IMG/VR virus record: IMGVR_UViG_3300043436_002205 | Direction: 5' to 3' (one strand) | From: a virus | Lineage: Duplodnaviria; Heunggongvirae; Uroviricota; Caudoviricetes | DNA length: 64,000 nt | Part shown: positions 1 to 19,508 of the stretch, piece by piece | Layout of the letters: every line of letters begins with the position of its first letter | Position numbering within the stretch: the first letter of the stretch is position 1 | Program-made: the position numbers and the translations under genes | The notes under the pieces: generated by a model | Databases searched by the model: none | Seen by the model: the letters and a program-made list of their open reading frames with translations, nothing else | Told to the model about the DNA's origin: nothing

Positions 1-50
1 GACTATGACTTCGTTATGTGGCGCTTGAAAAATCTAATAGAGGAAAGCAA

Positions 51-542
51 ATGAGCAACATGTTGAAATGGGCGGAAGCCGAACTTAAACTGGCTGGATA
101 TGATATTAATGATCCAGAAGATGGACCAAACCGTTGGCTTGCAGAAGGAACGCTTGAGCTTCTCAAAGTGTTCTCAGAACAAGGACACAGCGGTATGTCG
201 GCACCGTATGCAGTAGCTTTGTTTGAGAAGCTCGCATCATGGAAACCTATTGCTCCTTTGACTGGCGAATCTGACGAGTGGACGGAAGTCAGCGCAGATA
301 TGTGGCAGAACAAACGTAACAGTTCTGTCTTTAAGGATGAAGATGGGCGACCATACTGGATGGATGGTCGAGTGTTTTGGGAATGGTATTCATCGCCAGA
401 TATTGACGAAGGTAAACCATATAAGAGCTACTATACGGGTCGTGAAAGCCGAGTGTTTATTGAGTTTCCGTGGACACAACCAGAAAAGCCTGAGTATGTT
501 TTTGTACCAACAGAACAGTTTCCAAACGAGGTAATCGAATGA
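51..542 (+). CDS. hypothetical phage protein (an alternative start at 18 is possible)
   Basis: Long ORF. An AGGAAAG RBS sits 5 nt before the ATG at 51. No family motif recognised. Confidence 0.5.
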   Translation: MSNMLKWAEAELKLAGYDINDPEDGPNRWLAEGTLELLKVFSEQGHSGMSAPYAVALFEKLASWKPIAPLTGESDEWTEVSADMWQNKRNSSVFKDEDGRPYWMDGRVFWEWYSSPDIDEGKPYKSYYTGRESRVFIEFPWTQPEKPEYVFVPTEQFPNEVIE

Positions 543-1404: not shown

Positions 1405-1436
1405 CTGTTATACGATTGTTACATCTTCAATATAAT
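1405..1436 (+). promoter_or_regulatory. Pho-box-like direct repeats (CTGTTAT-acga-TTGTTAC, 11-bp periodicity) followed by a TATAAT -10 box, upstream of pstS
   Basis: Two 7-bp direct repeats match the E. coli Pho-box half-site CTGTCAT with a 4-bp spacer. A perfect TATAAT lies at 1431-1436. A hairpin (ATATCCC..GGGATAT) and an AAGGAGA RBS follow in the leader. Confidence 0.45.
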
Positions 1437-1484
1437 ATAGTAATATCCCCAATGAATAGGGATATTTAAACAAAGGAGAATTAT

Positions 1485-2450
1485 ATGAAAGCTTTACTAT
1501 CAGCGGCGGCAATTATTGCTTTGGCGTCCACGACTGCGTTTGCAAGAGATAACGTTCAAGTAACAGGATCGTCTACAGTACTACCATATGCAACCATTGT
1601 CGCAGAGGCATTTGGTGAAAATTTTGATTTTCCGTCGCCAGTAGTTGAAGGTGGTGGTTCGGGTGCAGGCCGTAAGAAGCTCTGCGAAGGTGTTGGTGAA
1701 AACACTGTTGACATCGCAAATAGTTCTTCAAAGATGAAGGATGAAGAAAGAGCCAAGTGTGAAGAAGCAATTGGTGAAGTGACTGAGGTTCGTATTGGTT
1801 ATGACGGTATCGTGTTTGCATCGAACATCGATCAACTTAATATCGATAATCTAACAGTCGAACAACTCTATAGCGCTCTACACGAGTCGAGCACTGCAAA
1901 ACTCTGGAGTGAAGTCGACTCGACTCTTCCAGAAGTAGCAATCCTTGCATACATTCCAGGTACCAAACACGGCACTCGTGAAGTGTTCGATGTAAAGGTG
2001 ATGGAAGAAGGTTGTAAAGCAGCTCTCGGTGTTGAGAAACTCGATGACGATCAAAAGAAAGCTTGTGTGAAAGTAAGAACTGACGGTGCAGCAGTTGACA
2101 TCGATGGCGACTACACAGAAACACTTGCTCGTCTTGATGCTAATAAAACATCGCTAGGTGTGTTTGGTCTTAGCTTCTATCAGAACAACACTGATAAACT
2201 AGAAGTTGCCACGGTAAGTGGCGTGGCACCAAGCGTAGAAACCATCTCAAGCGGTGACTATCCAATCAGCCGTCCACTTTACTTCTACGTGAAGAACGCT
2301 CACCTCAGCGTCATTCCTGGTCTGAAGGAATACATCGAGTTCTTCGTGAGTGATGAGATGGCAGGTCCTGATGGCGCTCTTGCACAGTATGGATTGGTTC
2401 CAGATCCAGAACTTGCAGCTACTCAGGCTGAAGTTTCTGCTCTTAAATAA
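1485..2450 (+). CDS. pstS: phosphate ABC transporter substrate-binding protein PstS, with signal peptide
   Basis: N-terminal signal peptide (AFA|RD). PstS-family motifs TGSSTVLPYA and YPISRPLYFYV. Length of 321 aa fits. Confidence 0.85.
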   Translation: MKALLSAAAIIALASTTAFARDNVQVTGSSTVLPYATIVAEAFGENFDFPSPVVEGGGSGAGRKKLCEGVGENTVDIANSSSKMKDEERAKCEEAIGEVTEVRIGYDGIVFASNIDQLNIDNLTVEQLYSALHESSTAKLWSEVDSTLPEVAILAYIPGTKHGTREVFDVKVMEEGCKAALGVEKLDDDQKKACVKVRTDGAAVDIDGDYTETLARLDANKTSLGVFGLSFYQNNTDKLEVATVSGVAPSVETISSGDYPISRPLYFYVKNAHLSVIPGLKEYIEFFVSDEMAGPDGALAQYGLVPDPELAATQAEVSALK

Positions 2451-2452
2451 GA

Positions 2453-3223
2453 ATGAAATATAAAAGCATCTTCATAAGTGATGTGCATTTAGGAACCAGA
2501 GGGTGTCAAGCAGACGCCCTCTGTGTTTTCTTAAAAAACAACACAAGCGAAAACCTATTCCTAGTTGGTGATATGCTGGATGGTTGGCGCTTAAAGAAAC
2601 GTTGGTACTTTCCACAGAGTCATGCCAATGTGATACGCAGAATACTCACGGCAGCTAAGCGTGGCACTAGAGTAGAATACATATTAGGTAATCACGATGA
2701 AGCAGGCCGTAAGTTTTTAAACTTTGATATCAGCTTCGGTAATATTAAAGTAACTAACAGACAAGACTACATAGGTTTAGACGGCAAACGTTATCTGGTT
2801 ATTCATGGTGACTTCTTTGACGTATTGATGCATGATAAAAAATGGTTGATGCACATTGGAGATACTTTGTATGACGCTATGATATATGCCAATGTTCAGT
2901 TTAATCGAGTAAGAAGTTTGTTTGGTATGGACTATTGGAGTTTAAGTAAATATCTAAAACAGAATACTAAACACGCGTTAAACTTTATCAATCGTTACGA
3001 AGAACATCTAGCTGCCTATTGTAAGCAACATGGATATGACGGAATAATTTGTGGTCACATTCATCATGCTGAAATAAAAGAAATAAATGGTGTTATATAC
3101 ATGAACGATGGCGACTGGGTCGAGAGTGCCACCGCTCTGGTAGAACACTTTGATGGAAGATGGGAGATAGTGCATTATGCCGAAGATCTTAATAGTTACA
3201 GACAACTTACCGAATCAGATTAA
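2453..3223 (+). CDS. calcineurin-like metallophosphoesterase of the LpxH/PlcP family (candidate phospholipase C PlcP-like)
   Basis: Motifs FISDVHLG, GDMLDGW, GNHDE, IHGDFFD, CGHIHH and GDW align with the LpxH-type metallophosphoesterase signature. It lies immediately upstream of, and overlaps, a GT4 gene, as in the plcP-agt lipid-remodelling pair of alphaproteobacteria. Confidence 0.7.
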   Translation: MKYKSIFISDVHLGTRGCQADALCVFLKNNTSENLFLVGDMLDGWRLKKRWYFPQSHANVIRRILTAAKRGTRVEYILGNHDEAGRKFLNFDISFGNIKVTNRQDYIGLDGKRYLVIHGDFFDVLMHDKKWLMHIGDTLYDAMIYANVQFNRVRSLFGMDYWSLSKYLKQNTKHALNFINRYEEHLAAYCKQHGYDGIICGHIHHAEIKEINGVIYMNDGDWVESATALVEHFDGRWEIVHYAEDLNSYRQLTESD

Positions 3224-4184
3224 TGGTGTGGTTACGACCTACAAAAATATTGAGACGTATGCGATTCGCGACGGTTATACTGTTGATTATATTCATCCCG
3301 GGATGTACGGCCATATTGATTGCCCAAAGTACAATGAAGTTAAGCTTGCCTGGGCACCTCCTTGGGTTGTTGGGAAAGAGATCAAGAAGATTGATCCGGA
3401 TTATATACACATCGCCACAGAAGGTCCTATGGGTATGTCTGCTAGAAGGTATCTTGCAATACGTGGGATTAAGTACAATACTGCTTACCATACTAAGTTT
3501 CCTGAAGGTGTAAGGACGTTACTAGGAATTCCTGAAGGAATTACTTGGGCAGTTGTGCGCTGGTTCCATAAGAATAGCAATAAGGTACTCACTACGACAA
3601 AATCAATGGTCGATGAACTTCATGCGCATGGATTTAATAACAATGTTATTCATTGGACTCGAGGAGTTGATAGGGATATATTCAAACCGGCAGTGAAAGA
3701 ACCATGCTCGCACATTAACCTCGTTTGCGTGAGTCGAGTAAGCAAAGAAAAAAATCTGGAAGCTTTTCTTGAGATAAACTACCCCAATGCAGTTAAAACT
3801 ATCGTAGGCGATGGTCCTATGTTAGAAACATACAAGAAGCAATATCCTTACGTGAACTTTGTAGGTGCCAAACGTGGTGCTGAACTCGCGCATTATTATC
3901 AACAGGCTGATGTTTTTGTGTTTCCTAGTCGTTGGGATACATTTGGATTGGTGATGATTGAGGCAATGGCATGCGGTACTCCGGTCGCTGCTTATCCTGT
4001 GCAAGGACCATTAGACGTAATAGATCAAGATGTAACTGGTTATATGGATGAGGATATCACTATCGCTATTAAAAAATCTCTTGACCTCGATAGAGAATCA
4101 GTATACAAATTCAGCATGAAATGGGATTGGGGAAACGCTTGGAACATTTTTCGAGACAATCTTATAAACTGTAAAACTAACTAG
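3177..4184 (+). CDS. glycosyltransferase family 4 (Agt-like glycosyl-diacylglycerol synthase candidate)
   Basis: Typical GT4 N-terminus (KILIVTDNLPNQINGVVTTY) and C-terminal EAMACGTPVAA motif. It overlaps the upstream gene by 47 nt. Confidence 0.8.
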   Translation: MPKILIVTDNLPNQINGVVTTYKNIETYAIRDGYTVDYIHPGMYGHIDCPKYNEVKLAWAPPWVVGKEIKKIDPDYIHIATEGPMGMSARRYLAIRGIKYNTAYHTKFPEGVRTLLGIPEGITWAVVRWFHKNSNKVLTTTKSMVDELHAHGFNNNVIHWTRGVDRDIFKPAVKEPCSHINLVCVSRVSKEKNLEAFLEINYPNAVKTIVGDGPMLETYKKQYPYVNFVGAKRGAELAHYYQQADVFVFPSRWDTFGLVMIEAMACGTPVAAYPVQGPLDVIDQDVTGYMDEDITIAIKKSLDLDRESVYKFSMKWDWGNAWNIFRDNLINCKTN

Positions 4185-4194
4185 AGGATAAACC

Positions 4195-4953
4195 ATGATT
4201 GTACTATTAGGATACGGCTTCGTTGGTAAAGCTCACTATAAAGCGTTTAGCCCTCATCACGAAATGTCTATCGTAGATCCGGCCTTCAGCAATATTCGTA
4301 TCAAAGACATAGAAAACATTAGTGGTGCTATCGTCTGTGTTTCGACTCCATCATCTGAAGATGGAAGCTGTGATATGAGCATAATCTATAATGTAATTCA
4401 AGACATTCCAAAAGAAGCTCCAATTCTCATTAAGAGCACGATATCGATGGAGGGATGGGAAACTCTCGAAAGAAACTTTCCTGAACACTCCATCACATTT
4501 AGTCCAGAATTTCTTCGAGCTGCAAGCGCAGACGACGACCTTAAGAACCTCACTCATGCGTTCTTGGCTGGCGGTAACGTTCAATACTGGTTAGATTTTT
4601 ACACGACGGTGTATCCAGACATCAGCATAACTGTATGTAAGCCAAAGCACGCAATTGCCATCAAGTATTTTCGAAACTCGTTTCTTGCGGCAAAGTGTAG
4701 CTTCTTCAACGAGATCTACGATTTCTGTGAAACGCTCGGATTGGATTACGAGTCGGTTCGCTCTGGTGTCACGTTAGACTCTCGTATCGGTGAGAGCCAT
4801 ACTTTTGTAAATGAGAACGATAGAGGCTGGGGCGGAGCGTGTTTTCCAAAGGATACCGCGGCGATTCTGCAGACGGCAAAGAACTCAGGCGTCGAGCTAC
4901 AGACGCTAGAAGCTGCCGTAAAATATAATGAGTCTGTTCGAAAAAAAGTTTAA
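4195..4953 (+). CDS. truncated UDP-glucose/GDP-mannose 6-dehydrogenase family protein (Ugd-like, lacks the C-terminal UDP-binding domain)
   Basis: Rossmann N-terminus GYGFVGKA. Catalytic-Cys motif GWGGACFPKD. The ORF ends about 30 aa after that Cys, at 252 aa against roughly 390-440 aa for Ugd. Confidence 0.6.
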   Translation: MIVLLGYGFVGKAHYKAFSPHHEMSIVDPAFSNIRIKDIENISGAIVCVSTPSSEDGSCDMSIIYNVIQDIPKEAPILIKSTISMEGWETLERNFPEHSITFSPEFLRAASADDDLKNLTHAFLAGGNVQYWLDFYTTVYPDISITVCKPKHAIAIKYFRNSFLAAKCSFFNEIYDFCETLGLDYESVRSGVTLDSRIGESHTFVNENDRGWGGACFPKDTAAILQTAKNSGVELQTLEAAVKYNESVRKKV

Positions 4954-5016
4954 GAAAGCCATTGACATTTGCTTCTACATTGATTATATCTATATTGTAA
5001 GCAATGGAGAACAACT

Positions 5017-5295
5017 ATGGCTATCGCAATCGTGACCCCCGAAGAAGTTGAAGTCGACGTCTGCTACGGCAACTTTGACGGTTCCTATACCAAAACTATG
5101 TATGTAGTTGACTTCTTTAGAACTGAAGTAGGTATGTTGCACGGCGATCTCGACACATCGATGTATATCAAGACTGAACACGATGCAAAGATGATGGCCC
5201 GACTTTATGAACTCGGCATGACCGGCCGTGGCGAATACAACGAGATTACCTTTAACAAGATTTTTGAAGATGCAGAGGTTGGCGAAGATGCCTAA
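5017..5295 (+). CDS. hypothetical protein
   Basis: 92-aa ORF whose stop overlaps the start of the next gene. Confidence 0.4.
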   Translation: MAIAIVTPEEVEVDVCYGNFDGSYTKTMYVVDFFRTEVGMLHGDLDTSMYIKTEHDAKMMARLYELGMTGRGEYNEITFNKIFEDAEVGEDA

Positions 5296-5812
5296 GGTTG
5301 AAGTTCTCGTAGGTCTGCCTGGTTCAGGTAAGTCGACTCGATTGTCGTTTGTTGACGATCCGGAGTTTGGTGGAGACGTCTTTGTGTATAGCACTGATGC
5401 ATATATCGAAGCTCGAGCCAAAGAAGCTGGTAAGTCTTACGACGACGTGTTCGGTGATCACATCAACGAAGCAACTAAGCATATGAATAATGTGCTTGCA
5501 ATTGCTATCAGCGCAGGGATTGATGTGTACTGGGATCAGACTAATATGTCTTCGAAGAAGCGTAAGAGCATCTTGTCGAAGTTCCCTAAGAACTATCACA
5601 AGGAATGTTGGTGCGTTCGTGTTCCTCAGACTGCTGAAGAGTGGGCTGAACTCGATCGTCGCCTTGATTCTCGTCCTGGGAAGACTATCCCTCATCACAT
5701 CATTGAAGCTATGGCTGATTCCTATGTTGAACCTGAACTCGATGAAGGCTTCGATAAGATCACCATTGTCGACATCTTTTGCAATGTAATTATGGAGAAG
5801 AAAAATGCATGA
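5288..5812 (+). CDS. pnk: polynucleotide 5'-kinase (kinase domain of T4 Pnk, as a stand-alone gene)
   Basis: Walker A GLPGSGKST. The DQTN motif and RxxRxGKxIP match the T4 Pnk kinase domain (DTN; RNSKRGTKAVPIDVL). The start is chosen at the ATG that overlaps the upstream stop. Confidence 0.7.
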   Translation: MPKVEVLVGLPGSGKSTRLSFVDDPEFGGDVFVYSTDAYIEARAKEAGKSYDDVFGDHINEATKHMNNVLAIAISAGIDVYWDQTNMSSKKRKSILSKFPKNYHKECWCVRVPQTAEEWAELDRRLDSRPGKTIPHHIIEAMADSYVEPELDEGFDKITIVDIFCNVIMEKKNA

Positions 5813-5852
5813 TATTGCGTACTTAGTTATTAATTGGAAATTGGAGGAATAG

Positions 5853-6038
5853 ATGGCTTTTTATACTATGATTGGCTTCATTGTCGTTGCGGCTGTGATT
5901 GGTGTTGGTGCGTATTGGGTGGTGTCAAATATCACGTTTAAACGCCAGCCTGAACGCTTCACGTATACCAAAGATGAAGATGGTAATGAATACGTCCGTG
6001 ATAACACTGTAACAACGAAAGATAAACCTGATGTTTAA
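5853..6038 (+). CDS. small membrane protein (possible partner of the SPFH protein)
   Basis: Single TM helix at the N-terminus. It overlaps the start of the SPFH gene. Confidence 0.4.
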   Translation: MAFYTMIGFIVVAAVIGVGAYWVVSNITFKRQPERFTYTKDEDGNEYVRDNTVTTKDKPDV

Positions 6039-6987
6039 ACCTGATCGCTATGACTTTAACACTAAAGCTGAGTATGAAGCAGCACTAAATCAATATAATG
6101 AACGTAAAAGGAAAATGAAAATGAATGCTATCGTTGGTGGAACTATCGCTACTGTCGTCGGTCTTACTGCACTGACTGTAATTGGCGGATCGTGGTATAC
6201 TGTTGATGAAGGTTACCGTGGTGTAACTCTTCGTAACGGTGCCGTGGTTGGTACTGCAGAACCAGGTCTTGGATTTAAAATCCCTTTGATCGAAAAGGTG
6301 GTTGATATTTCTGTTCAATCACAGGCTCAGTTGTACGAGAACATCCTTGCTTACTCTCGTGATCAACAGACTGCGGGTCTAAACCTGTCTGTTAACTATC
6401 GCTTCCCTGCAGATCAAGTTGAGACGATCTATCGTGAATATGGTGGCGAAGCTGGCGTGATCTCTCGCTTGCTTGATCGTCAGGTTCTTGAAGAAGTCAA
6501 GAACGTCTTTGGTAAGTTCAACGCAGCAACCGCTATTCAGGAACGTGAACGTCTTGCTGCAGAAGTTCAGATGGCAATCCAGAAAGCTGTAATTGGTCCT
6601 ATCATCGTTGAGTCGGTTCAAATTGAGAACATCGACTTCTCTGATGCTTATGAACAATCGATTGAAGCTCGTATGCTTGCAGAAGTCGAAGTGCAAAAGG
6701 TTCGGCAGAACGCAGAACGTGAAAAGGTTCAGGCTGAGATCGTCGTGACTCAGGCACAGGCACAAGCCGACGCTCAACTAGCTCAAGCAGTTGCGGCCGC
6801 AGAAGCAACTCGTATTCAAGGTGAAGCAGAAGCAAGCGCGATTAAGGCGAAAGCAGAAGCTCTGAAGGATAACGCAGGTTTGATTGCTCTAGTTCAAGCT
6901 GAAAAGTGGAACGGTGCTCTTCCTACCACTATGATCCCAGACTCGACTGTTCCATTCATGGACGTTGTTGCTAAGCCAGCCCAGTAA
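6031..6987 (+). CDS. SPFH/band-7 (prohibitin/HflC-like) domain protein
   Basis: N-terminal TM segment, band-7 core (GYRGVTLRNGAVVG...KIPLIEKV) and a C-terminal Ala/Glu/Gln coiled-coil. Confidence 0.75.
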   Translation: MFKPDRYDFNTKAEYEAALNQYNERKRKMKMNAIVGGTIATVVGLTALTVIGGSWYTVDEGYRGVTLRNGAVVGTAEPGLGFKIPLIEKVVDISVQSQAQLYENILAYSRDQQTAGLNLSVNYRFPADQVETIYREYGGEAGVISRLLDRQVLEEVKNVFGKFNAATAIQERERLAAEVQMAIQKAVIGPIIVESVQIENIDFSDAYEQSIEARMLAEVEVQKVRQNAEREKVQAEIVVTQAQAQADAQLAQAVAAAEATRIQGEAEASAIKAKAEALKDNAGLIALVQAEKWNGALPTTMIPDSTVPFMDVVAKPAQ

Positions 6988-7004
6988 GATAAAAATATGA
7001 AGAA

Positions 7005-7030
7005 AAAGAGCGCTTCGGCGCTCTTTTTTG
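7005..7030 (+). terminator. rho-independent terminator
   Basis: AGAGCGC-ttcg-GCGCTCT stem followed by TTTTTT. Confidence 0.7.
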
Positions 7031-7090
7031 TTTACAATCTCATAAAACTAGTTTATACAGAACAAGTATGAACCAATTCGGAGAATCGTT

Positions 7091-8215
7091 ATGGAAGTTA
7101 AAACAAGCACTGAGAACCTGTATAAGGTAGATACAAAAGGTAAGACGCGAGTCTGGCGAGCAGAGACCGGCACTGATGGAACTCGATGGGGTCTACGGAC
7201 GATCTCAGGGCTTCAGGACGGAAAACAGATTACTTCTGAATGGACCTTCGTTGAACAAAAGAACGTCGGACGCTCAAACGAGACGTCTCTCGAAGCGCAA
7301 GCAAACGCTGAGATGGTATCTGAAATGCAGAAGAAAGAAGATACTGGCTATTTCTCTAACATCGATATGATCCATACCTTTGATAAGTTCAAGCCGATGT
7401 TGGCTGAGAAGTATGAAGAGGTTCCGGTTAACTGGTCAAAGGGATACATCTATAGTCAACCGAAGCTCGATGGCATTCGTTGCATCGCTCGTAAGGATGG
7501 TCTATGGACTCGCGCAGGAAAAGAAATCGTCGCTGTTCCTCACGTCTGGGAGTCGCTGCAGTCTTATTTTGAAAAGAATCCAAACTTAATTCTTGACGGC
7601 GAACTCTATAATCACGAGCTGAAGGATGACTTCAACACCATCACCTCGATGGTTCGTAAGACAAAACCGAAGCCCGAAGACATCATGAAATCGAAGGAAC
7701 TCGTGCAGTATCACGTCTATGACGTCTATGTGACTGATAGTCCGGATCTGCCGTTCCGTAAGCGTGAGCTGTTGCGCTACGAAGCTTCGAACGAATTCGT
7801 AAAGATGGTTCCGACCATGCAGGTCAACGATCCGCAGTCGATCGATACTCTGTATGAGGGTTATCTCGAACATGGATACGAAGGTCAGATGATCCGCATC
7901 GATGGTCGTTACGAGAACAAGCGTACGAAAAACTTGCTGAAGCGTAAAGAGTTCTTGACCGACGAGTTCGAAGTCAAGGAAATGATGTCTGGTATTGGAA
8001 ACTGGCAGGGATGCACTAAACATTTTGTTTTGAAACTGAATGATACTCGTGACTTCCAAGCTGGTGTTCGTGGTGACATGGACACTCTACGTGCTCTCTG
8101 GGATGCAGGCAAGAAACCCGATTGGGTTACTCTTCGCTACTTCACTCCGACTCCGGATGGCGTTCCTCGGTTTCCAGTCGTAATCGATTGGGGCTTTGGA
8201 AAAAGAGAAGATTAA
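7091..8215 (+). CDS. ATP-dependent DNA ligase
   Basis: Nucleotidyltransferase motif I KLDGIR and motif IV-like EGQMIR. Size and layout resemble T7-type ligases. Confidence 0.8.
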   Translation: MEVKTSTENLYKVDTKGKTRVWRAETGTDGTRWGLRTISGLQDGKQITSEWTFVEQKNVGRSNETSLEAQANAEMVSEMQKKEDTGYFSNIDMIHTFDKFKPMLAEKYEEVPVNWSKGYIYSQPKLDGIRCIARKDGLWTRAGKEIVAVPHVWESLQSYFEKNPNLILDGELYNHELKDDFNTITSMVRKTKPKPEDIMKSKELVQYHVYDVYVTDSPDLPFRKRELLRYEASNEFVKMVPTMQVNDPQSIDTLYEGYLEHGYEGQMIRIDGRYENKRTKNLLKRKEFLTDEFEVKEMMSGIGNWQGCTKHFVLKLNDTRDFQAGVRGDMDTLRALWDAGKKPDWVTLRYFTPTPDGVPRFPVVIDWGFGKRED

Positions 8216-8238
8216 ATGAAAAAGAGTGCACTTTCCTA

Positions 8239-8296
8239 TTTACATTCATTTAGAATCAGTATATTCTAATAATGTAAGGAACGAAAGGAACATCCG
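8239..8296 (+). promoter_or_regulatory. conserved early/middle promoter copy 1 (TTTACA-N6-TAGAAT-cagtat-ATTCTA, shared leader AATGTAAGGAACGAAAGGAA)
   Basis: One of six near-identical intergenic elements, each ending at an ATG. It contains a -35-like hexamer, a palindrome, and an RBS. Confidence 0.55.
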
Positions 8297-8482
8297 ATGT
8301 TTGTACTCACTCTTGCTGCTGACTACGAAGGTGAAACCCTTCTAGGCGTATACTCGTCTCGTGAACTCGCAGAAGCTGCTTCGCAACAGTATCTGGTTGA
8401 TGCTGAACGTGATCTGCCATCTTATGAGCAGTTCGTTGTTCGTGAAGTCGCAGTTGATGCACCTGCAGAATATCGCTTCTAA
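8297..8482 (+). CDS. hypothetical small protein
   Basis: ORF immediately downstream of promoter copy 1. Confidence 0.45.
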   Translation: MFVLTLAADYEGETLLGVYSSRELAEAASQQYLVDAERDLPSYEQFVVREVAVDAPAEYRF

Positions 8483-8492
8483 GGAGAATCAG

Positions 8493-8654
8493 ATGTACAA
8501 GGTCTACGCACACTACGAAGAGTTCGATCGTTACGGCGATCGACTCGAGTCTTACGACATGTTTAGAGCAGACACAAAAGAAGAGGTCGAAAAGATCGTT
8601 GAAGGTCTCGACAAAGAGTACTATGTTTTTATTGAAATCGCAAAGGTGATCTAA
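8493..8654 (+). CDS. hypothetical small protein
   Basis: AGGAGA RBS 5 nt upstream of the ATG. The listed ORF at 8361 has an unsupported N-extension. Confidence 0.4.
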   Translation: MYKVYAHYEEFDRYGDRLESYDMFRADTKEEVEKIVEGLDKEYYVFIEIAKVI

Positions 8655-8655
8655 G

Positions 8656-9021
8656 ATGACTTGGAACCTGTTTCTTGATGACGAACGTAACCTCGAGGAT
8701 GCCACTTGGGCACCTTGGCAGGTTCGCGAGAAGTATCGTAACGAAGAGTGGGTGATCTGCCGCAATTTTTATGAAGTTGTTATAGCTGTTAGGACGAGAG
8801 GAATGCCATCATATATTTCATTTGATCACGATCTTGGTCAAGATGAACCCACCGGTCACGATGTCGCTAAACGTATTATGTATTGGGATATGAATGATAA
8901 GCGCTACCCGCTTCCAGACAACTTTGACTTCTACGTCCACTCACAAAACCCTATCGGCAAAGCAAACATCGAAGGCTTGCTGAACAACTATCTGAGGATT
9001 ATAAATGCTAATCGTATTTGA
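8656..9021 (+). CDS. hypothetical protein
   Basis: 121-aa ORF, tightly spaced to its neighbours. Confidence 0.45.
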   Translation: MTWNLFLDDERNLEDATWAPWQVREKYRNEEWVICRNFYEVVIAVRTRGMPSYISFDHDLGQDEPTGHDVAKRIMYWDMNDKRYPLPDNFDFYVHSQNPIGKANIEGLLNNYLRIINANRI

Positions 9022-9451
9022 CTTGGACGGAACACTCGCTAACATCGAGCATCGTTTGGACTATGTTCGTAGCAAGCCTAAGAACTGGGCTGCATTTGAT
9101 GCTGGCATTCCGAATGATAAAGTGAACCGATTTGTTGCGGAAGCCTTTCACTCTCTAAGTGCTGCTAGGAACACCATTGTCCTAGCGAGCGGTCGCAACG
9201 AGCGCAGTCGTGAAGCCACAGTCGCATGGTTGACTAAGAACAACCTGCATACGTGGGACAAGCTCTACATGCGTCCCGCAGATGACTTCCGTGGTGATGA
9301 TATTGTAAAGCGTGAAATGCTGGATCAAATCATCTCTGACTTTGGTAAGAAGCCAGACATGGTGTTTGACGATCGTCCTCGCGTGGTTCGCATGTGGCGT
9401 GATGCTGGTATCTTTGTGTTTAACGTCTATCAAGGTGAGGAGGACTTCTAA
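9005..9451 (+). CDS. HAD-family polynucleotide 3'-phosphatase (phosphatase domain of T4 Pnk, as a stand-alone gene)
   Basis: HAD motif I FDLDGTL, SGR motif, and a C-terminal DDRPRVVRMWRDAG matching T4 Pnk DDRTQVVEMWRRIG. Confidence 0.7.
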   Translation: MLIVFDLDGTLANIEHRLDYVRSKPKNWAAFDAGIPNDKVNRFVAEAFHSLSAARNTIVLASGRNERSREATVAWLTKNNLHTWDKLYMRPADDFRGDDIVKREMLDQIISDFGKKPDMVFDDRPRVVRMWRDAGIFVFNVYQGEEDF

Positions 9452-9775
9452 TGGGTAAACATATCAAAACTCAACTGGACTACGATCTAATCGAAACTCT
9501 TGCACAGGAGTTGCATCGAGTGGATCCAGATAATGCTAAACTGAAACACTATCTGGCAATGGATAACTTTGAAGGTGGAGAGCTGCGTAAGGCAGTTACA
9601 AAGGTGAGCAAATGATTGACACAGCAGGCGCATATATTCTTATTCTAATCAGCTCTTATAACGGAGCTGCTATTACAACACTGGAATTCCCTAATTATGA
9701 TTCTTGCAAATCTGCTATTACACAGCTTGAGCCGGTGCGCGCCTTGGAAGGATATTGTATTGCAAAGGAAGTAAA

Positions 9776-10024
9776 ATGACTGACGAAGAACTGGTGAAGC
9801 GGCTGCGGAAGCGGCAAGAGTTTGAGTCTATTGACGGGTACAAGCGGATTGAGTGGAAAGATGAAGATGCTCTCGAAGCCGCCGACCGCATCGAAGAACT
9901 AGAGGACAATCTGGCGAAGGCCGTCGGGGGTCTTAATGCAATCTATGTTTGGGGAGAAGACACGTATGCAAGAGATATGGCCCGCACCACGCTGGGCGAG
10001 ATTGCGGGAAAGAAGACATGGTAA
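9776..10024 (+). CDS. hypothetical protein
   Basis: ORF in the 9755 frame. The ATG at 9776 (MTDEELVKR) is the preferred start. Confidence 0.35.
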   Translation: MTDEELVKRLRKRQEFESIDGYKRIEWKDEDALEAADRIEELEDNLAKAVGGLNAIYVWGEDTYARDMARTTLGEIAGKKTW

Positions 10025-14595: not shown

Positions 14596-15423
14596 TTGAA
14601 GAGATTACTGTACCAGTTTCACGTCGACTTTAAAGATAGAAGTAAGAATGTTTTCGGCGAAAGCTTTGATCGAGTTTCGGTTGGAGAATACTGGAAACAT
14701 AGCACAACTTTTGCAAAAGCATACTGTGAGAGATATGGTATCGACTATAAGTTTGAGTTCCTAAGTGAAGAGGAATATAAACCTTGGGCATTTGGCGTTG
14801 AGACCTTTGATAAGTATAGAGCAGTTCAACATCTAAAGGATTACGATCAGGTTCTATACGTAGACACCGACGTGATCATACACCAAAATGCCGATAACAT
14901 CTTTGAAGAATTTATGCATAGCGGACTCGTCGGTTACTTTGATAATGTCGCTGATAGATATATTCATAGGGATAGCAGCTCGCTCGGAAAGATAAATTCT
15001 GGTGTCATACTGTTTAATAACACAAATAGAAATTTAAAGAACGGACATGGAAAACTATATAACATGGATATATTTTCTGGTAACTATCCATGCAGAGGAA
15101 CTCCATCTGAAACTCATATACTTGAGAAATTTTCAAAGGGCAAATGGTGGGAGCATTGGGAAGAAAAGCATTCTGAAAACGTAATTTATCTAAAGAACAA
15201 AACAGCTTCAGATGAAAATTTCTTTCACTACATTGTGAACTTATATACTCTACTTCCATTCCATATCGGAAGAAAGTATAACTATCGCAGAAAATTTAGC
15301 GAAAAGCCATTCTTTAGAAGTGGATCGGAAATGATTGAGGTGTCTCCAAGCTTTATTCATTATGAAGGCGCATCTAAAAAACTAATTTATAAAGACTTCG
15401 AAGAAGGTTTATTTTTTAAATGA
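14596..15423 (+). CDS. GT8-like nucleotide-diphospho-sugar glycosyltransferase (GT-A fold)
   Basis: DxD motif in LYVDTDVIIHQ, and INSGVILFNN resembling the GT8 NSGVM motif. Confidence 0.5.
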   Translation: MKRLLYQFHVDFKDRSKNVFGESFDRVSVGEYWKHSTTFAKAYCERYGIDYKFEFLSEEEYKPWAFGVETFDKYRAVQHLKDYDQVLYVDTDVIIHQNADNIFEEFMHSGLVGYFDNVADRYIHRDSSSLGKINSGVILFNNTNRNLKNGHGKLYNMDIFSGNYPCRGTPSETHILEKFSKGKWWEHWEEKHSENVIYLKNKTASDENFFHYIVNLYTLLPFHIGRKYNYRRKFSEKPFFRSGSEMIEVSPSFIHYEGASKKLIYKDFEEGLFFK

Positions 15424-16355
15424 AAAGAGTTCTTGTAACTGGTGCAGCAGGATTTATTGGAGCTTCACTATCCGCTCGTCTTCGCGATTGCGGTTACGAG
15501 ATAATTGGTATTGACAACTATTGTGATTACTATCCAGCTACACTTAAGGTGGATAGAGTTAAGCATTTTCGCTTGCCTCCAGTACACCTAGTAGATATCA
15601 TTCATAAAGAAGCTCTATCTCGCTTTATTAAGAGTGCGAAGCCAGACATTGTTGTACACCTAGCAGCGATGGCGGGTGTAAGATATTCTATGAAGAACCC
15701 TGGTATCTACCATAAGGTAAACATAGACGGAACTCAAAACGTTATTGATGCGTGCAAAGAAAACGGCATAGAAAAAGTCGTCTATGCATCTACTTCTAGC
15801 GTCTGCGCTGGAATCGAACAACTTCCATGGAGAGAAGACGAACCGGTTCTTCATCAGATAAGTCCGTATGGATACACTAAGTTTGTTAATGAATGCCAGT
15901 TTAAGATGTCTGGCCTGAACGACATCGGTCTTCGTTTCTTCACAGTATATGGACCTTGGGGTAGACCCGACATGGCTCTCTATGACTTCACAAAGAACAT
16001 TCTCAATCGTGAAAAGATAAAGCTGTATAACTATGGAAACATGAAGCGCGATTTCACGTACATTGATGATATCGTGAAAGGTGTTCAGATAGTGATGGAA
16101 AACGACAGTATTCCTTCGAACGAGATCTTTAACATAGGTAACACTCAGCAAGTCACTCTTAAACGTTTCGTAGAAGCAATCGAAACGGCGACTGGAAAGA
16201 AAGCTGATATTGAGTATATCGAACACCAAGCAGGCGATTGTCTTGAGACTCAGTCTGACGTATCAAAACTTGTAAAGTATGGTTATCAACCTTCAGTCAA
16301 TATCGAAGAAGGTGTTGCTTCATTCGTTGATTGGTACACTTCATATCATAAGTAG
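15420..16355 (+). CDS. NAD-dependent nucleotide-sugar epimerase/dehydratase (UDP-glucuronate/UDP-glucose 4-epimerase family)
   Basis: Extended-SDR N-terminus VLVTGAAGFIGASL and catalytic YGYTK (YxxxK). About 311 aa. Confidence 0.8.
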   Translation: MKRVLVTGAAGFIGASLSARLRDCGYEIIGIDNYCDYYPATLKVDRVKHFRLPPVHLVDIIHKEALSRFIKSAKPDIVVHLAAMAGVRYSMKNPGIYHKVNIDGTQNVIDACKENGIEKVVYASTSSVCAGIEQLPWREDEPVLHQISPYGYTKFVNECQFKMSGLNDIGLRFFTVYGPWGRPDMALYDFTKNILNREKIKLYNYGNMKRDFTYIDDIVKGVQIVMENDSIPSNEIFNIGNTQQVTLKRFVEAIETATGKKADIEYIEHQAGDCLETQSDVSKLVKYGYQPSVNIEEGVASFVDWYTSYHK

Positions 16356-18294: not shown

Positions 18295-18555
18295 ATGAAT
18301 TATGATAAAGACGATATCATTAAAAAGCTAAACGAAACGATCTGCAAGGTCGTTTTCACAAAAGCAAACGGTGAGACTCGAGTGATGCACTGCACTCTAT
18401 CAAATGAGTTTCTGCCAGCTCAAGTAGATCTTGAAGAAGCAATTCAAAAGAAGATTCCAAACCACACTGTGCTTGCGGTCTGGGATGTTGAAGCAAACGG
18501 ATGGCGTTCTTTCCGTTGGGACTCTCTTAAAGAGTTCAGCACAGTAGACAAATAA
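18295..18555 (+). CDS. hypothetical protein
   Basis: 86-aa ORF. Confidence 0.4.
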   Translation: MNYDKDDIIKKLNETICKVVFTKANGETRVMHCTLSNEFLPAQVDLEEAIQKKIPNHTVLAVWDVEANGWRSFRWDSLKEFSTVDK

Positions 18556-19508
18556 TGAGCTGTATTTACAAGGGAAACATTGTAGATACAAACCTCTCTC
18601 GCAATGCTCGTGGAGGCACTGAGATGATGCGAGAGAGGCTGCTTAATAATGTTCCGCCGGAACTTCTACAGAATTTTGCAGTTCACTTCTCGAGGCCTCG
18701 TGAGATGCACAAAGATGTGAAAAACATTTTCTACTGCCATGATTTAGTTTTTGATCCAGAGAATGCTGTTCTTCGTGACGGCGGTTGGCAAAAGTTCGAT
18801 CACTTTGTTTTCGTTTCGTATTGGCAGCGTGATCAATACATGCTCATCTATCAGATTCCATACTCGAAGTGTAGCGTAATACACAATGCGATTGAGTTGG
18901 AGTATCACCCGCATCAAAAGAGAACCGATCAAATTCGTTTCATCTATCACACGACTCCGCATCGTGGATTGGAACTCGTCTATCCGATCTTTGATGCTCT
19001 CAGCAAACAATACGACAACATTCATCTGGATGTATACTCATCCTTTAAGATTTATGGTTGGGAACAACGTGATAAGCCATATGAAAACTTGTTCGAAAAA
19101 CTCAAAGCTCATCCACGAATTACATATCATGGATCAAAGAGTAACGAAGAAGTTCTCGAAGCTCTGAAGGAATCTCATATCTTCCTTTTCCCTTCAATAT
19201 GGCAGGAAACGTCTTGTATCGCGATGATAGAAGCGATACGTTCTGGTGTATTGGTGATCCATCCTAATTATGCAGCTCTGCCAGAAACGTCTTCTAACGC
19301 TACTCTAATGTATGAATATACTGAGGATAGAAACGAGCATGCGAACCGTTCTTTTTCTGCAGTAAAGAACATACTTGATGCCCAGCGTATCGACGAAAAC
19401 TTCATTAATAAGATAACGAATTCGGACGCATGTAACCTTCCACGGAATAGCATAAATACCTTTAAGAACTCTTGGATTAACTTGTTGAGGCGTTTAAGTA
19501 ATGGCTGA
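18555..19508 (+). CDS. GT-B fold glycosyltransferase (GT1/GT4-like), putative
   Basis: The C-terminal region (FLFPSIWQETSCIAMIEAIRSGVLVIHPN) resembles the GT-B E..G.P.V nucleotide-sugar-binding motif. Confidence 0.45.
   Translation: MSCIYKGNIVDTNLSRNARGGTEMMRERLLNNVPPELLQNFAVHFSRPREMHKDVKNIFYCHDLVFDPENAVLRDGGWQKFDHFVFVSYWQRDQYMLIYQIPYSKCSVIHNAIELEYHPHQKRTDQIRFIYHTTPHRGLELVYPIFDALSKQYDNIHLDVYSSFKIYGWEQRDKPYENLFEKLKAHPRITYHGSKSNEEVLEALKESHIFLFPSIWQETSCIAMIEAIRSGVLVIHPNYAALPETSSNATLMYEYTEDRNEHANRSFSAVKNILDAQRIDENFINKITNSDACNLPRNSINTFKNSWINLLRRLSNG

What the first reader, a model, noticed from the sequence alone, without database searches (positions are those of the whole stretch)
1405..4953. 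Phage-borne Pho-regulon cassette: pstS, a PlcP-like metallophosphoesterase, a GT4 (Agt-like) glycosyltransferase and a truncated Ugd, suggesting phage-encoded phospholipid-to-glycolipid membrane remodelling
The expected pstS auxiliary gene is present. Directly downstream in the same operon are an LpxH/PlcP-family metallophosphoesterase (all calcineurin-like motifs intact) and a GT4 glycosyltransferase overlapping it by 47 nt. A UDP-sugar-6-dehydrogenase-like remnant follows. In alphaproteobacteria (Sinorhizobium, Agrobacterium, SAR11), a PhoB-regulated plcP-agt pair replaces phospholipids with glucosyl- or glucuronosyl-diacylglycerol under phosphate starvation. LpxH alone would make no sense in a phage. 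An LpxH-like enzyme fused in an operon with GT4 and pstS behind a Pho box fits that lipid-renovation module. I do not recognise this as a standard phage auxiliary gene set. If it works, the phage would free lipid phosphorus for its own DNA synthesis during infection.
Basis: partly seen in the sequence, partly recalled or inferred. Interest (0 to 1): 0.85.

Follow-up and report, generated by a model that had tools for sequence, protein, structure and literature searches.

The report
Phage-borne phospholipid-to-glycolipid remodelling operon
A T4-like marine phage carries, behind a phosphate-starvation promoter, a phosphate-binding protein plus phage versions of the two bacterial enzymes that swap membrane phospholipids for sugar lipids, and this pair, usually mislabelled "LpxH" plus a glycosyltransferase, turns up in many viral contigs, so phages may mine host membranes for phosphorus.

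Summary
Four tightly packed same-strand genes lie at 1485-4953 in a T4-like myophage: pstS, a metallophosphoesterase, a GT4 that overlaps it by 47 nt, and a Ugd-like gene.

- The phosphoesterase is not LpxH. It is 22% identical to E. coli LpxH, scores far below the LpxH cut-offs and has GNHD where LpxH has GNRD. It is 46-55% identical to proteobacterial proteins that sit directly upstream of an Agt-like GT4 in 58 of 80 genomes, the known plcP-agt operon.
- The GT4 keeps all 15 residues shown by mutagenesis to matter in SAR11 GTcp/Agt.
- Pho-box-like repeats recur upstream of pstS or plcP in diverged phage loci.

Two corrections are needed.
- The "truncated Ugd remnant" is a conserved two-domain mini-Ugd of about 252 aa. 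All 120 best homologues are 247-290 aa. Its catalytic residues are intact and its predicted structure is confident.
- The module is not a one-off. At least 554 IMG/VR contigs encode the PlcP-like gene. Of the 80 best, 35 have the Agt-like gene directly downstream.

None of my ten literature searches found a paper describing phage PlcP-Agt. Viral copies are catalogued as "lpxH" LPS genes. Enzyme activity and any benefit to the phage are untested.

The parts
1405..1422 (+). Pho-box-like site: two 7-bp direct repeats with a 4-bp spacer (CTGTTAT ACGA TTGTTAC), placed where a -35 element would sit
   Evidence: 3 mismatches to CTGTCATNNNNCTGTCAY, not above chance window-wide; equivalent 11-bp-phased repeats lie upstream of pstS in L006 and L012 and upstream of plcP in 11 of 91 phage loci. 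The background rate is 1e-4 per position. Bacterial plcP served as positive control, with 21 of 80 loci hit.
1431..1436 (+). -10 hexamer TATAAT, 8 nt downstream of the Pho box
   Evidence: Read directly from the sequence. The generic sigma-70 scan did not call a promoter here because no -35 hexamer is present. That is expected for a PhoB-dependent promoter (inference).
1473..1478 (+). Shine-Dalgarno AAGGAG, 6 nt before the pstS ATG
   Evidence: Read from the sequence.
1485..2450 (+). pstS: periplasmic phosphate-binding protein with an N-terminal signal peptide (MKALLSAAAIIALASTTAFA)
   Evidence: Pfam PBP_like_2, 183.6 bits. TIGR02136 PstS family, 156 bits, below its 206.6 cut-off. PDB 9jwy phosphate-binding protein, E 1.5e-57. 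40-41% identical to the Pelagibacteraceae and phage Mosig PstS, and 54-66% to PstS of other phage contigs. The signal peptide was judged by eye.
2453..3223 (+). plcP-like Mn-type metallophosphoesterase (predicted phospholipase C acting on PE/PG) with a helical cap at residues 121-192
   Evidence: All metal-binding motifs are present. It is 52% identical (262 bits) to the Pelagibacteraceae plcP ortholog, against 22% (36 bits) to E. coli LpxH. The LpxH equivalog models score 46 against a cut-off of 134, and 39 against 190. The motif is GNHD, not GNRD. The closest solved folds are LpxH-lipid X complexes.
2497..2533 (+). Strong hairpin (11-bp stem) plus T-run inside the 5' end of plcP; a possible attenuator between pstS and plcP
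   Evidence: terminator-like scan.: -26.7 kcal/mol in the window, with stable equivalents in L006 (-25.2), L012 (-22.5, different stem bases) and L096 (-22.1). It is weak in L003, L009 and Mosig. Any function is inferred only.
3177..4184 (+). agt/GTcp-like GT4 diacylglycerol glycosyltransferase; its start overlaps the plcP 3' end by 47 nt
   Evidence: Pfam GT4 N and C domains. All 15 mutagenesis-tested GTcp residues are conserved, and the motifs read SRVSKEKN and FPSRWDTFG (using PMC8231724). It is 37-46% identical over its full length to the GT4 directly downstream of plcP in 58 of 80 bacterial loci. The same 47-nt overlap is kept in L003 and L006.
4195..4953 (+). mini-Ugd: a two-domain nucleotide-sugar 6-dehydrogenase homologue (shortened NAD domain plus central catalytic domain) that lacks the C-terminal UDP-binding domain
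   Evidence: GxGxxG at residues 6-11 is invariant across 37 homologues, as are T82, E105, K157, N161, C216 and D220. The 120 best homologues are 247-290 aa. AF2 gives pLDDT 93. TMq is 0.87 onto the first two domains of solved UGDHs. No C-terminal domain is found elsewhere in the window.

Best explanation
This is a phage auxiliary operon for phosphorus acquisition. It combines phosphate uptake with membrane lipid renovation.

Proposed sequence of events:
1. In a phosphate-starved proteobacterial host, host PhoB binds the Pho box at 1405-1422 and drives transcription of pstS-plcP-agt-(mini-ugd). This step is inferred from the motif, its position and its recurrence in related loci.
2. PstS is exported to the periplasm and feeds the host PstCAB transporter. 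This follows from family assignment.
3. PlcP, a cytoplasmic Mn-type metallophosphoesterase with an LpxH-like lipid-binding cap, cleaves the phospho-headgroup from phosphatidylethanolamine and phosphatidylglycerol, leaving diacylglycerol. This rests on orthology to characterised PlcP.
4. Agt glycosylates the diacylglycerol from a UDP-sugar to make glucosyl- or glucuronosyl-diacylglycerol, so the membrane stays intact until lysis. This rests on conservation of every tested GTcp residue.
5. The mini-Ugd may supply UDP-glucuronate. This is the weakest step, because the protein lacks the UDP-binding domain and also occurs in other sugar-nucleotide contexts.
6. The released phospho-headgroups would enter the nucleotide pool for phage DNA synthesis after dephosphorylation by host enzymes. 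This step is inferred.

Shown here: gene identity, orthology, residue conservation, synteny, recurrence in phages and enrichment of Pho-box-like sites. Not shown: any activity, any expression, or any benefit to the phage.
For: Identity of PlcP:
- NCBIfam LpxH equivalogs score 46.3 (cut-off 134) and 39.1 (cut-off 190).
- There is no phmmer hit to any solved LpxH at E<=0.01.
- It is 22% identical (36 bits) to E. coli LpxH, against 52% (262 bits) to a Pelagibacteraceae ortholog.
- The motif is GNHD, where E. coli LpxH has GNRD.
- The characterised OB3b PlcP and Agt are 51% and 43% identical to the HTCC7211 proteins (PMC9239053). The phage proteins lie within the same range.

Synteny:
- An Agt-like GT4 lies directly downstream in 58 of 80 bacterial loci, including Pelagibacteraceae, Labrenzia, Mesorhizobium and Pseudovibrio. 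This is the arrangement described for plcP-agt (PMC4796936).

Agt:
- 15 of 15 mutagenesis-tested GTcp residues are conserved, including Asp254, which aligns with the Asp of GTcp's catalytic dyad, and the DAG-binding residues T161, R162 and W318.

Fold:
- The best PDB matches are LpxH-lipid X complexes, and the helical cap is present.

Regulation:
- Pho-box-like repeats lie upstream of pstS in the window, L006 and L012, and upstream of plcP in 11 of 91 phage loci. About 2% would be expected by chance.

Recurrence in phages:
- At least 554 IMG/VR contigs encode a relative.
- Agt lies directly downstream in 35 of the best 80.
- The contexts hold T4-type genes.
- Phage Agt sequences form a separate clade with 100/100 bootstrap support.
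- Catalytic residues are invariant across phage homologues.
- PhoH is also present in the window.
Against: - No experimentally characterised PlcP or Agt sequence could be aligned directly. Orthology is indirect, through Pelagibacteraceae and other genome loci and through published residue numbers.
- The Pho-box match in the window has 3 mismatches and is not above chance window-wide.
- Many phage plcP genes lack both agt and pstS. One example is the very abundant P0106, which sits among baseplate genes. Another is phage Mosig. The lipase may therefore serve a purpose other than renovation.
- In L012 plcP is followed by a GT2, not a GT4.
- The mini-Ugd lacks the UDP-binding domain and elsewhere sits beside PMM and nucleotidyltransferase genes.
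- PlcP releases phospho-headgroups, not free phosphate. No phosphatase was found in the cassette.
- The host is unknown.
- Phage PlcP monophyly is weakly supported (17/100).
Confidence: 0.65

Rival explanations
1. The biochemistry is the same (phospholipid to DAG to glycolipid), but the benefit is not phosphorus supply. The phage would remodel the host envelope to block superinfection by competing phages, to reduce grazing, or to time membrane weakening and lysis. The link to pstS would then be regulatory convenience only.
For: Many phage plcP genes occur without pstS or agt, and some sit among baseplate and tail genes. Membrane lipid composition affects phage attachment in roseobacters (PMC9938194, listed). 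The pelagimyophage literature already proposes surface alteration as the role of phage glycosyltransferases (PMC7029224).
Against: In the window and in L006, L012 and Mosig the gene is physically coupled to pstS. Pho-box-like sites are enriched upstream. Both point to a phosphate-starvation role. The glycolipids would form mainly in the inner membrane, which incoming phages do not see directly (established membrane biology, inference).
Confidence: 0.17
2. This is an LPS or lipid A and surface-glycan module. A true LpxH, an RfaG-like core glycosyltransferase and a Ugd would modify host lipopolysaccharide or O-antigen. Automatic annotation and AMG catalogues imply this reading.
For: JGI, GenBank and VIBRANT/KEGG label these genes LpxH. 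HIMB59 P-island genes were read as LpxH plus RfaG (PMC10734472). The closest solved folds are LpxH. The window has a second epimerase-plus-GT sugar module at 15.4-19.5 kb.
Against: The LpxH equivalog HMMs score far below their cut-offs. No sequence hit to solved LpxH was found. The motif is GNHD, not GNRD. Identity to E. coli LpxH is 22%. The GT carries all tested DAG-binding and catalytic residues of GTcp, and its best NCBIfam hits are lipid glycosyltransferases, not LPS-core enzymes. The bacterial orthologs are the plcP-agt operon. From my own knowledge, not tested here: Alphaproteobacteria use LpxI rather than LpxH.
Confidence: 0.05
3. The genes are recently captured host DNA, drifting or non-functional, with no role in infection.
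For: The mini-Ugd lacks a domain considered necessary for UDP-sugar binding.
Against: Catalytic residues are invariant across dozens of diverged phage homologues. Gene length is conserved across 120 mini-Ugd homologues. The 47-nt overlap is conserved. GC content matches the rest of the phage. Phage Agt forms its own clade, up to 76% identical within phages against at most 46% to bacteria.
Confidence: 0.03

Closest known systems
Bacterial PlcP-Agt lipid-renovation operon (S. meliloti SMc00171; Phaeobacter MED193_17359; SAR11 HTCC7211 PB7211_983/PB7211_960 = GTcp; A. tumefaciens Agt Atu2297; P. aeruginosa PlcP with Agt1/Agt2; M. trichosporium OB3b)
   Same: The gene order is the same, plcP then agt. 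The metallophosphoesterase motifs are the same. All tested GTcp residues are kept. Identity to bacterial orthologs (46-55% and 37-46%) equals that between characterised members. Pho-box-like sites lie upstream.
   Different: It is encoded by a lytic-type T4-like phage. The genes are fused into one compact unit with pstS upstream and a mini-Ugd downstream. plcP and agt overlap by 47 nt, where the bacterial genes are separated by about 30-120 nt. Phage Agt forms its own clade (100/100). No activity data exist.
LpxH (UDP-2,3-diacylglucosamine diphosphatase of lipid A synthesis)
   Same: Both have a calcineurin-like fold with an inserted helical lipid-binding cap. LpxH-lipid X complexes are the best structural matches. 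This is the usual automatic annotation.
   Different: Identity is only 22%. Scores lie far below the family cut-offs. The motif is GNHD rather than GNRD. The genomic partner is a DAG glycosyltransferase, not lipid A genes.
Phage phosphate-stress auxiliary genes (cyanophage pstS/phoA behind Pho boxes; pelagimyophage pstS, PMC12379486)
   Same: A phage pstS sits behind a host-type Pho box and would presumably be switched on by host PhoB in P-starved cells.
   Different: pstS is co-transcribed here with lipid-remodelling enzymes. The PstS is of proteobacterial type and only weakly matches the cyanophage PstS PHROG (E 2e-7).
UDP-glucose/GDP-mannose 6-dehydrogenases (Ugd, TuaD, AlgD)
   Same: It has an NAD-binding Rossmann domain with GxGxxG. 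The central domain carries the catalytic Cys, Lys, Asn and Asp. TMq is 0.87 to solved UGDH structures.
   Different: It lacks the whole C-terminal UDP-binding domain and about 40 residues of the N domain. The ~252-aa form is itself a conserved phage family.

Membership tests
PlcP (metallophosphoesterase phospholipase C of lipid remodelling) | Calcineurin-like metallophosphoesterase with all metal-binding motifs | tested here: met
   Pfam Metallophos, 51 bits. D10, H12, D40, N80, H81, H118, H202 and H204 are invariant in phage alignments.
PlcP (metallophosphoesterase phospholipase C of lipid remodelling) | Closer to PlcP orthologs than to LpxH | tested here: met
   52% identity (262 bits) to the Pelagibacteraceae ortholog, against 22% (36 bits) to E. 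coli LpxH. The identity range equals that between characterised members (PMC9239053). No characterised sequence could be aligned directly.
PlcP (metallophosphoesterase phospholipase C of lipid remodelling) | Operon-like association with a non-phosphorus-lipid synthesis gene (agt, btaBA) | tested here: met
   An Agt-like GT4 overlaps its 3' end. The same adjacency occurs in 58 of 80 bacterial and 35 of 80 viral loci.
PlcP (metallophosphoesterase phospholipase C of lipid remodelling) | PhoB/Pho-box control | tested here: inconclusive
   A Pho-box-like site lies at 1405-1422, with 3 mismatches, and is not above chance window-wide. Such sites are enriched upstream of phage pstS and plcP and upstream of bacterial plcP. 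There are no expression data.
PlcP (metallophosphoesterase phospholipase C of lipid remodelling) | Mn-dependent hydrolysis of PE/PG/PC to diacylglycerol | not testable with these tools
   This needs an enzyme assay or lipidomics.
Agt/GTcp clade of GT4 (diacylglycerol glucosyl/glucuronosyl transferase) | GT-B fold GT4 with UDP-sugar motifs GRVAxEKN and FPSxTDTFG | tested here: met
   Pfam Glyco_transf_4 plus Glycos_transf_1. The motifs read SRVSKEKN and FPSRWDTFG, with R, K, D, T, F and G retained.
Agt/GTcp clade of GT4 (diacylglycerol glucosyl/glucuronosyl transferase) | Catalytic dyad His104-Asp256 (Asp, not Glu) and donor-site residues G16, G82, G85, R190, K195, T257, F258, G259, E264 | tested here: met
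   All are conserved: H105, D254, G17, G83, G86, R187, K192, T255, F256, G257, E262 (residue list from PMC8231724).
Agt/GTcp clade of GT4 (diacylglycerol glucosyl/glucuronosyl transferase) | DAG-binding residues Thr162, Arg163, Trp320 | tested here: met
   T161, R162 and W318 are present.
Agt/GTcp clade of GT4 (diacylglycerol glucosyl/glucuronosyl transferase) | Synthesis of MGlc-DAG / GlcA-DAG from DAG and UDP-sugars | not testable with these tools
   This needs expression and lipid analysis.
LpxH | Score above the curated equivalog cut-off | tested here: not met
   NF003743 scores 46.3 against 134. TIGR01854 scores 39.1 against 190.35. There is no phmmer hit to solved LpxH.
LpxH | GNRD variant of the third phosphoesterase motif (as in E. 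coli LpxH) | tested here: not met
   The window has GNHD, invariant in phage and bacterial PlcP-like proteins. E. coli LpxH has GNRD. That this motif is diagnostic of the LpxH family is from my own knowledge.
UDP-glucose 6-dehydrogenase (Ugd) | NAD-binding domain and central domain with the catalytic Cys/Lys/Asn/Asp | tested here: met
   GxGxxG at 6-11, T82, E105, K157, N161, C216 and D220 are invariant. TMq is 0.87. The assignment of catalytic roles is from my own knowledge of UGDH.
UDP-glucose 6-dehydrogenase (Ugd) | C-terminal UDP-binding domain, and a score above the family cut-off | tested here: not met
   There is no PF03720 hit. TIGR03026 scores 133.5 against 189.8. The model covers only about half of solved UGDHs (TMt ~0.5). 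No C-terminal domain lies elsewhere in the window.
PstS (periplasmic phosphate-binding protein) | PBP type-2 fold of the PstS family with an export signal | tested here: met
   PBP_like_2, 183.6 bits. PDB 9jwy, E 1.5e-57. TIGR02136 scores 156, below its 206.6 cut-off. The signal peptide was judged by inspection only.

The most novel reading that the evidence does not exclude
Many marine and freshwater T4-like phages may carry their own PlcP, often with Agt and sometimes with PstS. During infection of P-starved hosts they would actively convert host phospholipids into glycolipids. Three things would follow. Phages would strip membrane phosphorus to build DNA. Part of the plcP signal used as a marker of bacterial P stress in ocean metagenomes, and part of the non-phosphorus lipid pool in oligotrophic waters, would be virus-driven. 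And the co-located mini-Ugd would be a new, functional two-domain nucleotide-sugar dehydrogenase that works without the canonical UDP-binding domain.
Probability: 0.35. Interest if true: 0.85.

Novelty: new variant of a known kind. Interest (0 to 1): 0.72.

Why it matters
Known phage phosphate-stress genes (pstS, phoA, phoH) act on uptake or have unknown roles. A phage-encoded lipid-renovation pathway would be a new way for viruses to reach an internal phosphorus store, the host membrane.

It would link viral infection to the phospholipid-to-glycolipid shift that shapes phosphorus budgets in oligotrophic oceans.

It also has practical consequences. These genes are routinely annotated as LpxH and counted as LPS-biosynthesis auxiliary genes in viromes (PMC10653327). 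Bacterial P-island copies have been read the same way (PMC10734472). Metagenomic surveys of plcP found sequences that clustered with no isolate (PMC4796936, Fig. 2 legend); I speculate, without having tested it, that some of these are viral.

The hypothesis can be tested directly with two clonable genes and standard lipidomics. A cultured pelagiphage, Mosig EXVC030M, already carries the pstS/plcP pair.

Tried and rejected
- A near-identical DNA search in the phage collection found nothing, so the phage is uncultured and unrepresented.
- A direct sequence search of the phosphoesterase against solved structures gave only marginal Vps29 hits. That was useful as a negative result for LpxH.
- The Wei et al. 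2018 PlcP mutagenesis paper (PMC6052262) is not held. PlcP-specific functional residues could not be checked beyond the generic metal motifs.
- The single genome-collection scan went to the PlcP alignment. Genomes with characterised PlcP or Agt (S. meliloti, A. tumefaciens, HTCC7211, P. aeruginosa) could therefore not be fetched for direct alignment.
- The Pho-box consensus scan of the window alone is not significant. Only the comparative scan was informative.
- The 5'UTR hairpin upstream of pstS is weak, with z -0.9 to -1.6 against shuffles. I do not claim it as a feature.
- PlcP phage monophyly differed between the two distance methods I ran and had 17/100 bootstrap support. I do not claim it.
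- A search for a separately encoded Ugd C-terminal domain in the window found none.
- No tRNA genes are present to hint at the host.
- Ten literature searches combining PlcP, LpxH or lipid remodelling with phage, viral or AMG terms found no description of phage PlcP-Agt. "PLCP" mostly retrieves papain-like cysteine proteases.

Full report
**What is there.**
- The window holds four same-strand ORFs: 1485-2450, 2453-3223, 3177-4184 and 4195-4953. They are separated by 2 nt, a 47-nt overlap and 10 nt.
- Pfam assigns them to PBP_like_2, calcineurin-like Metallophos, GT4 (N and C domains), and UDPG_MGDP_dh central plus partial N domain.
- The window is a T4-like myophage. Portal, major head protein, tail sheath, large terminase, DNA ligase and RNA ligase match PHROGs.
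- The portal is 54% identical to that of the Sinorhizobium phage phiM12/phiM7 group.
- No close DNA relative exists in the phage collection.
- GC content across the cassette (0.42) matches the rest of the window.

**The phosphoesterase is PlcP-type, not LpxH.**
- NCBIfam's two LpxH equivalog models score 46.3 and 39.1 bits, against cut-offs of 134 and 190.
- A sequence search of all PDB chains finds no LpxH at E<=0.01.
- BLASTP gives 22% identity (36 bits) to E. coli LpxH.
- It gives 52% identity (262 bits) to the homologue in a Pelagibacteraceae single-cell genome.
- The third phosphoesterase motif is GNHD in the window and in every phage and bacterial relative aligned. E. coli LpxH has GNRD.
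- All metal-binding motifs are intact.
- An AlphaFold model (pLDDT 77.8) has the phosphoesterase core plus a long helical insertion at residues 121-192. Its best solved-structure matches are LpxH-lipid X complexes, with E 4.6e-11 and TMq 0.54.
- The enzyme therefore shares LpxH's lipid-handling architecture but is not a family member. No PlcP structure is available for comparison.

**Orthology to the bacterial plcP-agt operon.**
- One scan of 185,579 species genomes with a phage PlcP alignment returned relatives of 46-55% identity in Alpha- and Betaproteobacteria. They include Pelagibacteraceae, Labrenzia, Mesorhizobium, Pseudovibrio and Caulobacter.
- In 58 of the 80 loci kept, a full-length homologue of the window's GT4 (37-46% identity) lies directly downstream on the same strand.
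- That is the type 2 plcP-agt arrangement described for marine bacteria, where the SAR11 agt was shown to make MGDG and GADG (PMC4796936).
- The characterised PlcP and Agt of Methylosinus OB3b are 51% and 43% identical to the HTCC7211 proteins (PMC9239053). The phage proteins are no more distant from SAR11 orthologs than one characterised pair is from another.
- I could not fetch a characterised sequence itself, so this step remains indirect.

**The glycosyltransferase.**
- The GTcp study (PMC8231724) lists residues whose mutation abolishes or sharply reduces activity. These are the His104-Asp256 dyad, donor-site residues G16, G82, G85, R190, K195, T257, F258, G259 and E264, DAG-site residues T162, R163 and W320, and L56.
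- The Pelagibacteraceae GT in locus L062 has exactly those residues at exactly those numbers, so it serves as a proxy for GTcp.
- Aligned to it, the window protein keeps all 15: G17, L57, G83, G86, H105, T161, R162, R187, K192, D254, T255, F256, G257, E262 and W318.
- The two UDP-sugar motifs read SRVSKEKN and FPSRWDTFG.
- Its best NCBIfam hits, all below cut-off, are lipid glycosyltransferases rather than LPS-core enzymes.
- In a neighbour-joining analysis the 41 phage Agt sequences separate from the 59 bacterial ones with 100/100 bootstrap support.
- The corresponding PlcP split is weak (17/100), and I do not claim phage PlcP monophyly.

**Regulation.**
- CTGTTAT-ACGA-TTGTTAC at 1405-1422 fits the proteobacterial Pho box with three mismatches. 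That box is two CTGTCAT repeats 11 bp apart. The site lies 8 nt upstream of a TATAAT and 80 nt upstream of the pstS ATG.
- On its own this means little. The window has 6 such matches against 10.6 expected.
- Comparison changes the picture. Diverged phage loci carry two to four 11-bp-phased repeats of the same type upstream of pstS (L006, L012) and immediately upstream of plcP (L012).
- Across all fetched loci the background rate is 1e-4 per position per strand, or about 2% per 200-nt upstream window. Observed hit rates were:
  - bacterial plcP (positive control): 21 of 80;
  - phage plcP: 11 of 91, mostly YTGTAATCAWACTGTAAY at -42/-43;
  - phage pstS: 3 of 4, plus the window.
- I take PhoB control as likely but unproven.

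**The Ugd-like gene is not a remnant.**
- All 120 best database homologues are 247-290 aa, mostly 251-253, at 48-95% identity.
- In an alignment of 37 homologues the following are invariant: GxGxxG, T82, E105, K157, N161, and the catalytic Cys216 with Asp220 in GGxCFPKD.
- AlphaFold gives pLDDT 93 and pTM 0.88.
- The model superposes on the N-terminal and central domains of solved UGDHs at TMq 0.87, but covers only about half of them.
- The alignment to PDB 4a7p shows that the C-terminal UDP-binding domain and about 40 residues of the N domain are absent.
- No separate C-domain is encoded elsewhere in the window.
- The same mini-Ugd follows plcP and a GT2 in another phage contig (L012).
- In other T4-like contigs it lies next to phosphomannomutase and a nucleotidyltransferase.
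- It is therefore a conserved phage sugar-nucleotide gene of uncertain substrate. Supplying UDP-glucuronate to Agt is attractive but is the weakest link in the model.

**How common it is.**
- The protein database search returned 8,000 or more relatives. The best 120 are all at least 69% identical, are metagenomic, and where named are labelled LpxH.
- Four kinds of context were seen:
  - pstS-plcP-agt with the same 47-nt overlap (L006-L008);
  - plcP-agt without pstS on a 347-kb contig;
  - plcP alone between a TnsA-like gene and T4 gp2, baseplate and gp53 genes, in a variant indexed in 253 blocks of the contig collection;
  - two PBP genes, then plcP, GT2, mini-Ugd, PRPP synthase and a lipase.
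- The cultured Pelagibacter phage Mosig has pstS and plcP divergently arranged. Its plcP is annotated as UDP-2,3-diacylglucosamine hydrolase.
- Of the best 80 IMG/VR loci, 35 have the Agt-like gene directly downstream and 6 more have it nearby.
- 38 of those 80 share another phage protein with this window within 6 kb, against 3 of 80 bacterial loci.

**Literature.**
- Ten full-text searches found no paper describing a phage PlcP or PlcP-Agt.
- Viral "lpxH" is listed as an LPS auxiliary gene in surface viromes (PMC10653327).
- The pelagimyophage survey reads Ugd and glycosyltransferases as O-chain genes (PMC7029224).
- A 2025 study reports pelagimyophage pstS without mentioning plcP (PMC12379486).
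- Bacterial HIMB59 P-islands were described as carrying LpxH and RfaG (PMC10734472).
- The library is incomplete, so absence of a report is not proof of novelty.

**Verdict.**
- This is a phage version of the bacterial PlcP-Agt lipid-renovation pathway. It is physically and probably transcriptionally coupled to pstS behind a Pho box.
- Gene identities are well supported (about 0.85).
- The full mechanism has confidence of about 0.65: Pho-induced stripping of membrane phosphorus, with glycolipid replacement, for the benefit of phage replication.
- Compared with known systems it is a new variant of a known kind: a known bacterial pathway and a known class of phage auxiliary gene, in a combination not found in the literature I could search.

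Noticed in passing
window 18-542 (+): This ORF matches Pfam Tad3, the Type I Thoeris inhibitor, at 132.8 bits (E 6.7e-39). The phage therefore appears to carry an anti-Thoeris gene just upstream of the cassette.
   Followed up: no
window 4195-4953; loci L012 7509-8270, L175 6001-6759, L177 6001-6762: The mini-Ugd (~252 aa, no UDP-binding domain) is a large, length-conserved phage family. In other T4-like contigs it sits next to phosphomannomutase (PF03332) and a CTP_transf_like nucleotidyltransferase. Its substrate may therefore not be UDP-glucose.
   Followed up: partly
window 2497-2533; L006 ~8045-8080; L012 ~6040-6080; L096 ~6045-6080: A strong hairpin followed by a T-run lies inside the first 80 nt of the plcP ORF. 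Folding energies are -22 to -27 kcal/mol, and L012 and L096 use different stem bases. It is weak in L003, L009 and Mosig, which lack pstS directly upstream of plcP on the same strand. It might attenuate read-through from pstS into plcP-agt.
   Followed up: partly
L012 (146-kb contig) 3925-9976: This variant cassette runs: two PBP/PstS-like genes, plcP, a GT2 (not GT4), mini-Ugd, PRPP synthase and, on the opposite strand, a Lipase_3 protein. Three separate Pho-box-like sites are present.
   Followed up: partly
L009-L011 6001-6744 (protein P0106): This appears to be a very abundant phage PlcP variant, indexed in 253 blocks of the contig collection. It stands alone, with no agt and no pstS, between a TnsA-like gene and T4 gp2, tail-tube, baseplate and gp53 genes. 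The lipase may therefore have a role beyond Pho-linked renovation.
   Followed up: no
window 5228-5812 (+); L003 5524-6246; L009 1340-2008: A P-loop kinase with AAA_33 and Zeta_toxin matches lies within a few kb of plcP in three different phage contexts. The Zeta_toxin family is known to me as UDP-GlcNAc kinases, so a link to sugar-nucleotide metabolism is conceivable but untested.
   Followed up: no
window 6031-6987 (+): An SPFH/Band 7 membrane-scaffold protein with an N-terminal transmembrane segment is encoded about 1 kb downstream of the lipid cassette.
   Followed up: no
window 15420-16355, 18555-19508, 22298-23047: The window has a second sugar module: an SDR-type NAD epimerase/dehydratase and another GT1/GT4-like glycosyltransferase. 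A PhoH gene also lies further along the same strand.
   Followed up: partly
L001 (Pelagibacter phage Mosig) 5845-5994: The divergent pstS/plcP intergenic region contains TTTAACA-AAAA-CTTAACA. The 11-bp phasing is the same as in a Pho box, but the repeat differs from the CTGTCAT type. It may be the Pho box of an AT-rich SAR11 host.
   Followed up: no
L003-L005 (347-kb, 98-kb and 55-kb ENA contigs): plcP-agt with the identical 47-nt overlap sits on a contig of 347 kb, among PAAR, DUF7217 and Mtd_N-like genes. This may be a jumbo phage. Mini-Ugd homologues (P0239, P0241) also come from ~346-kb contigs.
   Followed up: no
L022 and L061 (contigs binned into Pseudomonadota/Gammaproteobacteria MAGs): Their PlcP sequences fall on the phage side of the tree, and neither locus has an agt. 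They may be phage contigs binned into MAGs.
   Followed up: no
Literature: PMC10734472, PMC10653327, PMC4796936: The plcP-agt-like pair in HIMB59 phosphate islands was interpreted as LpxH plus RfaG. Viral copies are counted as LPS "lpxH" auxiliary genes. The 2016 GOS PlcP tree contained metagenome sequences that clustered with no isolate, and I suspect some of these are viral.
   Followed up: partly
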